64,000 nucleotides of DNA from Paraspadella gotoi (Eukaryota; Animalia; Chaetognatha). Under the pieces are notes generated by a model. It searched no databases and was not told where the DNA came from. It saw only the letters and a list, made by a program, of their open reading frames with translations. Below are positions 38,243 to 41,200 of the stretch, one piece after another (within the stretch, counting starts at the first letter, position 1; each line of letters begins with the position of its first letter). The translations under genes and the position numbers were made by a program. Location: contig CM119269.1 of assembly GCA_051294375.1 (NCBI GenBank), forward strand, positions 15,077,918-15,141,917, read 5' to 3'.

Positions 38243-41200
38243 ATGAGCGATTACGACGCTGTCTCTGCTGGCGGCAGCGTTTCCGATTTTGGTGGCTCTG
38301 ACGCGTCTGACTCTCGTAATCCGGAGGAACCGGAAGATGCGCCGGAAACTGTGAGTCGCAGCGACGAAGGGGAACCGGGCGTCGACGATGACGACGACCG
38401 CGTGGAGCGCGACAGCATTGACTCTGCGTCGCTGGGAGACCTTTATCACTGCTGTCCCTGCTGCGGGACTACCACGTGTTGTTGCCTTTGCGCCTGTTGC
38501 AAATGCCTCCCCCCAGTTTGTTTGCGTCCATTAACAAAGAAAGTCAATAGCGGAGCCCATTGTCTGTTGAGGTAGGAAGCATATTACTGCTCAACGGATT
38601 TCTAAAAAATGTATCACTATTGTAATTAATAAAGTTAAAATGGGTTTACCTTCTATGTATAATATTATGTGTTTTATTCGTTTACAACAATTAGTTGAAA
38701 CAGTACATTCAAAAGGGCATACAGCATTACAGATAAACGCATAAATTGTACAGTTTACAATTCAACAAAATTTAAATATTTAAATTAACAGAACGAAAAA
38801 AAAAAATAACAATAAGCTGACAAGATTTTTAGAATATTGTTTCTAGAGGAAAAATGCTTGGATTCAAAGTTTTTTGATCTACAAGAAAAAATTTTATAGA
38901 TATCATTATATCCAAATGAGGACCTTAATGATCGTACACTCTCCCATCTATTCCAACCAAAATTTTTTCTAATGCCATCATTTATTGCTACATTTACTTT
39001 GGTCAAGTGAAGTGAAAGAGTATCTTTTGCAAGATACTCTTTCACTTCACTTCCGTACGTAAGTATTGTGACACAATTGGTGTAGTACAAACGCATTAAA
39101 ACCGTTTTATCAGGGTTTCGCGATTGGTTTTGTAAACCACTTATCCAGATCGGATCGGATGACTGGCTTGGCCAAAATGAAATTAGTCCGGCGATACTAG
39201 TCTCGTGCGCAACTTTTTTAAAAAAATTTTTCCCCATTTTTAAATTTTTTCTTTCTCACGTATAGTTTCTCCCTTTAGTTTTAAAAAAAAAATGTTTTAA
39301 TGTTTCGGCTTTCCTAATGCGTTATGATTTTGATGAAATTATTTATTCTAATTTTTTTATATAATACAAACGTAAAAAAACTGATGACTGACTTTCTTCA
39401 GGTCATTTTAGTAATAGTAAAATAGTAAATTAATTTTTTTAATGAAGGTATAAAAAACTGTGCATACATAATTATTGAGCAAAAACGATCTAACTTTCAT
39501 TAGTTCATAATTTTATTACACTTCGTTTAGGTGGTGTTGTCCATGCATAACTAGATGTCAAGAACGTTGTAGCGACTGTTGTCAACCGAAAAGCTTGAAT
39601 AAACCCGAACCCGTGGTATCCCCATTCACCCAAGGTAAATCTTCCTCGTTCTCATTTATTTTGTTGACAGTCGACGAGTCTTTCCATTCTTTGCAATTTC
39701 AATTTCAGGACGAGAATCCAAACGAAAGTTAATCCCATTTTCCGGGATGGCGAAGAACGCGAATCAGTTGACCTTGCACAAGGTCATTATGGTCGGCTCG
39801 GGAGGAGTCGGTAAATCTGCCCTCACACTCCAGTTTATGTACGACGAGGTGAGCGAGTATGCTCGGTTCACTTGGGGCTATCCGGTTAAACTTGGATGTG
39901 TCAGTGAAGAATTTAATTTTAAAAGTTGCGAAAGATATGTTGATTGACTTGATAGGTTTCGATGGTAAAATCCAATATGATTTTTGTCTATTTAGTTCGT
40001 TTCCGACTACGAGCCGACAAAAGCGGACTCTTATCGCAAAAAAGTTGTGTTGGACGGTGGAGAAGTACAGATCGACATTTTGGATACTGCTGGCCAAGAA
40101 GACTACGCCGCGATACGAGATAATTATTTCAGGTTGTTTTATGGATAGGGATAGCCTTCTATTTTTTTTTATCGTCGCAATCGCTAAGCGTTTGCGACGA
40201 TATTGTAACACTTTTGCGCATAAGTGGCGTAGGCGTCGGCGTTGTCGTCGTCGATGATTAAATTTGGGTTTATGAAGCTAAAAATTTATATACAGCTTCT
40301 CATCATCGATGTGCTTAAATATGTTTTGTTTACGTTTTATCAAAACAAACAAATTTTCTCTCTTTTATTTTCATATTTCTCTCTCTCTTTTTCTTTTAAT
40401 TACATGTCTCTCTCCCTCTGCAGGGGCTTATTCTTTTTCTCTCTTTTCTCCTGCTGCTTCTGCTGCTGCCTTTTGATTTTTTTCTTTGCAGCTGGCTCTG
40501 CAGGGCTCTCTTTCTTTTCTCTCTTTTCTCCTGTTGCTTCTGCTGCTGCCTTTTGATTTCTTTCTTTTTTTTCTCTTTCTCTCTGCGTTTTTATTTTAAA
40601 AAAATTGAAATTGACAATCGCAAAATAGAATTTTTTCTTCCTTTCTATTCTGTCTTTATATTTATTCTTTTTTTCTTTTCTTTCTGTTTATAAATTTTTT
40701 TTTTTCTCAAATTTGATTTTTTTAGTATCAAATTTGTCGTCAATCCAGATTTTTCTTATGCGATTGCGCCGATCCTATTGCATTTAAGATTTTTTATAAA
40801 TAAAAATTATTATATCAATCTATTATTATACTAAAGTATAAAATTTACAAATTCTTCCGAAATTAAAATTTTAAAATTTTATTTACGGAAGAATTAGTCT
40901 TTTTACATCATACCGAACGCTTTTATTCTAGATCTGGCGAAGGATTTCTTTGCGTTTTCTCCATAACAGAACAAGAATCCTTCCAGGCTACGGCAGATTT
41001 TAGGTAAGTGTAAAGAGGGGCTTATCAGACGAACGTAAATCTTTTACTAAATTAAAATTAAGAAATTGTCAGAGGAGATAATGAAGCAATGGCTTAATTT
41101 TACTTTTTCCGACTTGAACCTAACGAGTCAGCTATTTTTTAAGCGCTTAGAAGCCCGAGATCATTATTTTTTTCGCTTACTGGTACAAGGCTCGGTATAT

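What the first reader, a model, noticed from the sequence alone, without database searches (positions are those of the whole stretch)
38243..39848. Ral GTPase with a hidden 157-aa acidic + cysteine-string N-terminal extension
Seen: the apparently orphan 110-aa ORF ends at a donor (AG|GTAGGA, 38571). It joins in phase to 39531-39634 (tttag|G TGG TGT TGT...; donor G|GTAAAT) and then to 39709, running without stops into the canonical Ral Met. The product is acidic [32 protein letters not shown]...[25 protein letters not shown]...[10 protein letters not shown], with 20 Cys in about 60 residues and the Cys-rich character continuing across the splice junction. Known: Ral normally has only a short N-terminal extension and is anchored at its C-terminus, and Cys strings in CSP/DNAJC5 and RZ-family RGS proteins are multiply palmitoylated. 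Inference: a doubly anchored or metal-binding Ral isoform that I do not recognise as described.
Basis: partly seen in the sequence, partly recalled or inferred. Interest (0 to 1): 0.82.

Follow-up and report, generated by a model that had tools for sequence, protein, structure and literature searches.

The report
Conserved cysteine-string long form of Ral
An alternative first exon is spliced onto this animal's Ral signalling-switch mRNA and adds, in frame, a 157-residue acidic and cysteine-rich head whose cysteine block recurs in five diverged database proteins; the head likely gives Ral a second, fatty-acid-based membrane anchor, which nobody has yet tested.

Summary
Contigs of one public run carry both predicted junctions (38571^39531 and 39634^39709) and the downstream Ral junctions. 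The joined frame gives a 157-residue extension with 20 Cys in residues 70-127 on a 197-residue Ral. The exon is not an orphan. Five diverged unnamed proteins share its acidic head, 11 invariant Cys and a basic amphipathic segment, and their similarity stops at the same Arg that marks the phase-2 donor. Their link to Ral is inferred, not shown. Non-homologous long N-termini also occur in nematode, crustacean and mite Ral records. Best reading: a multiply S-acylated second membrane anchor (0.55). Main rival: a metal-thiolate module (0.25). The protein itself, its acylation and its localisation are untested. This is a new variant of a known kind.

The parts
36194..36316 (+). Alternative upstream exon 1A, spliced to 39531. 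No ATG in the Ral frame (although that frame is open across it); the mRNA would give the 197-aa Ral after three weak-context out-of-frame uATGs
   Evidence: Joint 36316^39531 in a 155-nt contig; frames and uATGs
37567..38242 (+). 5' untranslated part of exon 1B as far as the contig reaches; three short uORFs, all ending before 38243
   Evidence: Contig 37567-38569; uORFs
38243..38440 (+). Acidic head, residues 1-66 (net charge -18, no Cys), predicted unstructured; length and sequence not conserved, acidity conserved
38450..38521 (+). Cysteine string, residues 70-93 (12 Cys in 24 residues); 11 Cys plus Pro72, Gly75, Leu89, Pro90 invariant in 6 of 6 aligned sequences
38519..38571 (+). Basic, predicted amphipathic helix, residues 93-110, ending at the phase-2 donor (Arg110 split by the intron)
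   Evidence: mean moment 0.57, reached by 4 of 20000 joint column permutations
38572..39530 (+). 959-nt GT..AG intron (28% GC); unspliced read-through stops at once (TAG 38573-38575); AATAAA at 38628
39531..39634 (+). Exon 2, shared by both 5' forms: 7 Cys in its first 20 codons in the Ral frame, spaced like one face of a helix; the other two frames contain stops
39709..39848 (+). Exon 3: last 12-13 residues of the extension, canonical Ral ATG at 39747 (G at -3 and +4), G1 box
39996..40132 (+). Ral exon 4
   Evidence: Joints
40932..41003 (+). Ral exon 5
   Evidence: Joints
42525..42699 (+). Ral exon 6
   Evidence: Joints; Pfam Ras E 1.1e-15
42776..42883 (+). Alternative last coding exon A, ending CCSVM (Cys next to the CaaX Cys, no polybasic run)
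   Evidence: Contig 42772-43374 (the 42699^42776 joint is not among the 15 of 40 joints shown); same type of end in 10 of 18 related proteins
43380..43487 (+). Alternative last coding exon B, polybasic, ending CVIL
   Evidence: Joint 42699^43380; same type of end in 8 of 18 related proteins

Best explanation
Exon 1B is an alternative first coding exon of the Ral gene, spliced in frame through exon 2 into Ral, and it likely yields a 354-residue Ral whose cysteine string and adjoining basic amphipathic helix would be multiply S-acylated and act as a second membrane anchor besides the C-terminal prenyl group. Shown: the splice joints, the open frame, and conservation of the string, of the helix pattern and of the exon end in five homologues. 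Inferred: translation from ATG 38243 (first strong-context ATG on the contig); weak membrane binding by the hydrophobic string and basic helix, followed by DHHC-type acylation as in CSP-alpha; the acidic unstructured head staying cytosolic; and a two-point anchored pool of Ral with different sorting or residence time from the 197-residue form made via exon 1A. The two last exons would tune the C-terminal anchor independently.
For: Joints 38571^39531 and 39634^39709 and four downstream joints in one contig. Shuffle tests. phmmer over 1.84 billion representatives gave 6 hits at E<=0.001; 5 match residues 55-110 (E 2.4e-11 to 4.2e-4) and 1 (P0257, a repeat protein matching residues 27-56 only) was dropped. 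Over 41 ungapped positions identity is 22-27 of 41, including 10-14 of 28 non-Cys positions, and 18 positions are invariant. All 5 diverge right after the Arg equal to Arg110, and the next residue is Phe (4) or Trp (1), as an AG|GT read-through would give. Extra Cys move along one helix face (position 100 in 3 of 5, 104 in 4 of 5, 107 in 1 of 5 plus the window), which suits acylation sites better than fixed ligands. Residues 70-157 carry net +9 and the best 19-residue hydropathy is 1.48, so no transmembrane helix is predicted. Cys density is 12 in 24 residues versus 14 in 24 for palmitoylated CSP-alpha (PMC3481330 passages). Nematode long Rals independently pair a confidently predicted helix with a Cys cluster.
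Against: No protein-level evidence. One run of one study, contigs only; it may be the organism's own source data, and no single contig spans ATG 38243 to ATG 39747 (the link is a 30-letter overlap). No homologue was seen joined to a Ral domain: 11 cluster members listed, all on contigs of 0.6-2.6 kb, and the 13 closest Ral relatives are 138-204 aa. Fixed spacing without gaps and several CxxC pairs, one followed by Gly, also suit a metal site. In C. elegans the comparable form was not clearly detected as protein and its disruption had no effect in the assays used.
Confidence: 0.55

Rival explanations
1. The long isoform is made, but the cysteine block is a metal-thiolate module (Zn/Cu cluster or knuckle, metallothionein-like or redox sensor) that folds or recruits partners rather than being acylated.
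For: 20 Cys in 58 residues in two groups (12 and 8); 11 Cys invariant with no gaps; a C-P-C-C-G motif resembling a zinc knuckle (resemblance recalled, not from a call); no signal peptide, so the Cys would be reduced and cytosolic.
Against: No Pfam family for the exon-1B or exon-2 peptides or any homologue's Cys region and no meaningful PDB sequence match. Leu, Val, Trp and Pro are frequent, unlike metallothioneins (recalled). The adjoining conserved basic amphipathic helix with shifting Cys points to a membrane.
Confidence: 0.25
2. Exon 1B mainly works as a stand-alone short acidic/Cys-rich protein, ended by intronic polyadenylation; the splice into Ral is incidental.
For: Unspliced read-through stops immediately, with AATAAA 55 nt later; all 5 homologues are on record as free-standing proteins.
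Against: Homologue tails after the shared Arg are unrelated and 5-44 residues long, as expected for intron read-through, not for a real C-terminus. The listed contig over exon 1B leaves at the donor (24 further pieces not shown). Exon 2 continues the Cys pattern only in the Ral frame.
Confidence: 0.08
3. Exon 1B is only a long 5' leader from a second promoter; ribosomes make the ordinary 197-residue Ral, as once proposed for C. elegans RAL-1B.
For: That reading was published for the worm form (10.1101/381707 passage); three uORFs precede ATG 38243.
Against: Protein-level conservation of 18 of 41 positions in six diverged sequences; open frame in only 24 of 20000 shuffles; A at -3 of ATG 38243.
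Confidence: 0.05
4. The extension is made but serves as a protein-interaction or self-association module, or as an acidic autoinhibitory arm, with acylation minor.
For: Conserved bipartite charge: acidic head (net -18 to -32 in 6 of 6) and basic Cys/helix part; the CSP-alpha string is also linked to self-association (PMC3481330 passage).
Against: The head is not conserved in sequence or length (69-207 residues); no partner is suggested by any search.
Confidence: 0.07

Closest known systems
C. elegans RAL-1B (ral-1 exon 1b; 10.1101/2025.08.28.672893, 10.1101/381707)
   Same: Alternative upstream first exon, lower-abundance mRNA (13% or less in the worm), in-frame N-terminal extension on an otherwise canonical Ral. 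Nematode database forms carry a predicted helix plus, in 14 of 20, paired Cys.
   Different: No detectable homology: the nematode profile scores -26 bits on the window extension and profile-profile probability is 1.8%. Here the extension is about twice as long, has 20 Cys versus 1-6, puts the acidic part first and the string before the helix, and spans three exons. The C. elegans protein itself was not among my hits; other nematodes stood in for it.
[quoted passage not shown]
   Same: Dense Cys run with hydrophobic spacers (12 in 24 versus 14 in 24 residues), cytosolic, no transmembrane helix; proposed two-step membrane capture.
   Different: No J domain and no sequence match in Pfam or PDB; here the string sits N-terminal to a GTPase that also has a CaaX end. 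Acylation is shown for CSP, untested here.
Splice-switched lipid anchors of small GTPases (brain Cdc42 CCaX isoform; K-Ras4A versus 4B)
   Same: Alternative exons change the membrane anchor of one G domain (PMC13236570 passages; the K-Ras4B polybasic end is recalled). The two last exons here mirror this.
   Different: Those switches are C-terminal; this gene has one at each end, and the N-terminal one adds a large Cys block.
Canonical Ral (RalA/RalB, invertebrate Rala)
   Same: G domain 94% identical to the nearest unnamed relative over 196 columns; exon 6 is 74-81% identical to named animal Rals; CaaX end.
   Different: 157-residue optional head. None of 95 long-N-terminus Ral records examined exceeds 7 Cys in 24 residues.

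Membership tests
Ral GTPases | Ras-family G domain whose closest relatives are Ral proteins | tested here: met
   Pfam Ras on exons 3 and 6; all named hits among the 120 listed of 1294 that specify a gene are Ral; tree
Ral GTPases | C-terminal CaaX box | tested here: met
   Both last exons end in CaaX (CSVM, CVIL)
RAL-1B-type long Ral isoform | Alternative upstream first exon spliced in frame to the canonical start | tested here: met
   Joints 36316^39531 and 38571^39531; open frame
RAL-1B-type long Ral isoform | Lower abundance than the short form | tested here: inconclusive
   Contig depths 18.9 versus 210.7, but the tool warns that contig depth cannot rank parts of a gene
RAL-1B-type long Ral isoform | Sequence homology to the nematode extension | tested here: not met
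   -26 bits; hhalign probability 1.8%
CSP/DNAJC5 cysteine-string proteins | J domain | tested here: not met
   No Pfam family on the extension
CSP/DNAJC5 cysteine-string proteins | About 12-15 Cys in about 25 residues | tested here: met
   12 in 24 versus 14 in 24 (PMC3481330)
CSP/DNAJC5 cysteine-string proteins | Multiple S-acylation of the string | not testable with these tools
   Needs acyl-exchange or click labelling
Metallothioneins / zinc knuckles | Match to a metallothionein or zinc-finger family profile | tested here: not met
   Pfam; PDB
Metallothioneins / zinc knuckles | Stoichiometric metal binding | not testable with these tools
   Needs ICP-MS or spectroscopy

The most novel reading that the evidence does not exclude
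Animal Ral genes have repeatedly and independently gained an alternative first exon that bolts a second, N-terminal membrane anchor onto the GTPase (Cys string plus helix here, Trp-rich helix plus Cys cluster in nematodes, amphipathic helices in crustaceans and mites, short Cys-bearing leaders in molluscs and moths). The 20-Cys form is the extreme case of an unrecognised two-point-anchored class of Ral, combined here with a splice switch at the C-terminal anchor.
Probability: 0.4. Interest if true: 0.75.

Novelty: new variant of a known kind. Interest (0 to 1): 0.58.

Why it matters
Ras-family switches are placed almost entirely by their C-terminal lipid. A conserved exon that adds up to 20 potential acylation sites at the other end would create a Ral pool held at two points, with different sorting and residence time, or able to bridge two membranes during Exocyst tethering. 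It also reopens C. elegans RAL-1B, which was set aside as a nematode-specific, dispensable innovation: database records suggest analogous heads in several invertebrate lineages. The 41-residue motif is a compact, unannotated module that gene callers currently leave as free-standing hypothetical proteins. Interest is tempered because the lineage is unnamed here, nothing is shown at protein level, and the worm form had no phenotype in the assays used.

Tried and rejected
No whole genome is held. Run search: no RNA holder listed on record; the single run X1 is only guessed to be RNA. The word-index search with the 110-aa peptide found 0 of 6 candidates, but covered only 60-193 aa, below the homologues' 218-290 aa. 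The metagenome locus scan returned 80 of 160 Ral loci, none from the window's clade (best 76% identity); 40 of 80 held the G1 motif and none had a comparable upstream Cys string. Atlas: no answer for the window peptide or P0255, no usable hit for the P0250 head. The single-sequence fold of the exon-1B peptide was uninformative (pLDDT 54, pTM 0.19) and was not used for fold searches. No Rfam match in 35300-44500. Rejected: microsatellite origin; transmembrane helix; homology to nematode, crustacean, mite or Daphnia-type heads; P0257 as a homologue. No convincing upstream donor exon for exon 1A in 35416-36150. Earlier scan notes: five look-ups, nothing relevant. The lineage could not be named: the window groups 100/96 with 9 unnamed rows and no named one. 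One planned search for long Rals with an N-terminal Ral fragment was not run, so Rals of about 245-256 aa, including C. elegans RAL-1B, were not sampled. The claim that RZ-family RGS strings are palmitoylated stays recalled; the passages read in PMC3368389 and PMC8107437 did not show it.

Full report
Observation. Joined by coordinates, exons 38243-38571, 39531-39634 and 39709 onward give an open 157-codon extension ahead of the Ral ATG at 39747, with 20 Cys in residues 70-127 and 22 acidic residues in 1-66; the product is 354 aa with either last exon. Only 24 of 20000 dinucleotide shuffles of the extension were open and none reached 20 Cys. It is not a microsatellite, and exon 1B and the Ral exons are single-copy in the window.

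Splicing. One public run (X1, kept as contigs, RNA status guessed) was laid twice. A 1437-nt contig starts at 39530 and skips five GT..AG introns in a row: 39634^39709, 39848^39996, 40132^40932, 41003^42525 and 42699^43380. Two contigs lead into it: a 1034-nt one covering 37567-38571 and crossing 38571^39531 (depth 18.9, 31 letters on the short side), and a 155-nt one from a different exon, 36194-36316, crossing 36316^39531 (depth 210.7). The gene therefore has two 5' forms. Exon 1A has no ATG in the Ral frame and three weak-context out-of-frame ATGs before the Ral start, so it should give the 197-aa protein. Exon 1B has three short uORFs and then ATG 38243 with A at -3. The depths hint that 1B is the rarer form, but the tool warns against ranking by contig depth. 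Limits: one run, one study, possibly the genome's own source, and no single contig from ATG to ATG.

Conservation. A full HMMER search of 1.84 billion representatives with the 110-aa exon-1B peptide gave 6 hits at E<=0.001. One is a repeat protein matching only residues 27-56 and was dropped. The other five (218-281 aa, unnamed, separate 50% clusters, 11 members in all) share the plan: a long acidic head of variable length and unalignable sequence (net -21 to -32), a Ser run, then 41 ungapped residues that are 22-27 of 41 identical to residues 70-110, with 10-14 of 28 non-Cys positions identical and 18 positions invariant, 11 of them Cys. All five stop resembling the window at the Arg equal to Arg110, the codon split by the donor, and continue with 5-44 unrelated residues beginning Phe or Trp, as intron read-through past AG|GT would give. 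So the exon, its coding constraint and probably its 3' boundary are conserved. That these exons belong to Ral genes is inferred: their DNA could not be fetched, none carries a Ral domain, and the 13 closest Ral relatives are 138-204 aa. The clade could not be named.

Anatomy and mechanism. The head is acidic and predicted unstructured. Residues 70-93 hold 12 Cys in 24 residues, near the 14 in 24 of CSP-alpha, where hydrophobicity gives weak membrane contact and DHHC enzymes then fix it by palmitoylation (PMC3481330, passages). Residues 93-110 are basic and amphipathic in all six sequences (joint moment 0.57, reached by 4 of 20000 column permutations; window chosen after seeing the alignment), and extra Cys shift among positions 93, 100, 104 and 107 on the hydrophobic face. 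Exon 2 continues with Cys at helical spacing (moment 0.53, 329 of 20000 shuffles). No transmembrane helix is predicted. I read this as a multiply S-acylated second anchor (0.55). The fixed, gap-free Cys spacing with CxxC pairs keeps a metal-thiolate module open (0.25); Pfam and PDB give no match either way. A free-standing peptide (0.08; AATAAA at 38628), an interaction or autoinhibitory arm (0.07) and an untranslated leader (0.05) are weaker.

C-terminal switch. A second last exon (42776-42883, ending CCSVM) is covered by its own contig, which starts at 42772 where spliced and unspliced paths would merge (the joint itself is not among the 15 of 40 shown). Of 18 related proteins, 10 end in this type and 8 in the polybasic type. 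This parallels the Cdc42 and K-Ras splice switches (PMC13236570, passages; K-Ras4B and the CaaX prenyl rules are recalled). Whether exon 1B pairs with this exon is unknown.

Known comparisons. C. elegans ral-1 has a minor exon 1b (13% or less) encoding a longer N-terminus, reported in all nematodes examined, called nematode-specific, and dispensable in Exocyst and signalling assays; the protein bands were not clearly assigned (10.1101/2025.08.28.672893, section 5 and passages; 10.1101/381707, passages). The supplementary figures of these preprints, which may show the extension's sequence, could not be seen; only legends were read. A search for Rals over 256 aa listed 120 of 222 hits; 106 had the Ral G1 pattern and 95 of these had 45 or more residues before it. 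Many vertebrate ones share no motif and look like gene-model artefacts (my judgement), but nematode, decapod/amphipod/krill, Daphnia-type and mite-type heads each share motifs within their group (unnamed rows were grouped by eye with named ones). In nematodes 14 of 20 have paired Cys, and a model from 17 sequences shows a confident helix at residues 3-37 followed by a disordered linker. Best-window hydrophobic moments of 0.32-0.67 in these groups had no shuffled control. None of the 95 exceeds 7 Cys in 24 residues, and none of the four group profiles matches the window's extension. Short Cys-bearing leaders appear in mollusc, annelid, nemertean and moth records.

Novelty. Literature searches (open-access library only) found no Cys-string Ral; for I saw mainly listings and abstract starts. 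The kind, a long Ral from an alternative first exon, is known from C. elegans; this non-homologous, conserved 20-Cys version is a new variant. Interest 0.58. The broader reading, repeated evolution of a second N-terminal anchor on invertebrate Ral, has probability about 0.4 and would deserve 0.75.

Noticed in passing
window 36194-36316: Exon 1A begins at a clean acceptor, its contig has 3 letters before 36194 that do not lie on the window, and no upstream donor exon was found; the Ral frame is open across it without ATG. An unseen upstream exon, trans-splicing or a non-ATG start could give another extended form carrying the exon-2 cysteines.
   Followed up: partly
window 42776-42883 and 43380-43487: Two alternative last exons give Ral a CC-aX end or a polybasic CVIL end; both types occur in unnamed relatives (10 and 8 of 18), and a similar pair of ends appears among crustacean records.
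   Followed up: partly
window 39747: The short Ral here starts five to seven residues later than in its closest relatives (197 versus 202-204 aa); the relatives' start Met has no counterpart.
   Followed up: no
proteins P0139-P0252: Lineage-wide long N-termini on Ral in nematodes, crustaceans, Daphnia-type and mite-type records; one moth record carries an MG start with nearby Cys inside its extension.
   Followed up: partly
L029 450-720; L027, L037, L050: Metagenome Ral loci with in-frame upstream Met and Cys-bearing leaders; L029 has a Trp-rich stretch and a three-Cys run like the nematode type.
   Followed up: partly
window 15986-17920 versus 35300-37188: Indel-ridden 90.7% copy of the receptor-phosphatase 3' end and Ral exon 1A; looks like an unpolished long-read duplicate, so the upstream copy of the FN3-rich phosphatase gene may be an assembly artefact.
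   Followed up: partly
window 36998-37076: Short high-copy element with tRNA-like look (bin depth over 4000), also at 41332-41388 on the other strand; no Rfam or ARAGORN call.
   Followed up: no
window 57823-57920 and 58233-58330: Two 98-nt tRNA-Tyr(GTA) genes in tandem, probably intron-containing.
   Followed up: no
window 44800-47000, 49429-53803, 59464-59943: Neighbouring genes read by eye as an astacin/ShK-type protease, C2H2 zinc-finger proteins and a sugar kinase exon (labels recalled, not from a call).
   Followed up: no
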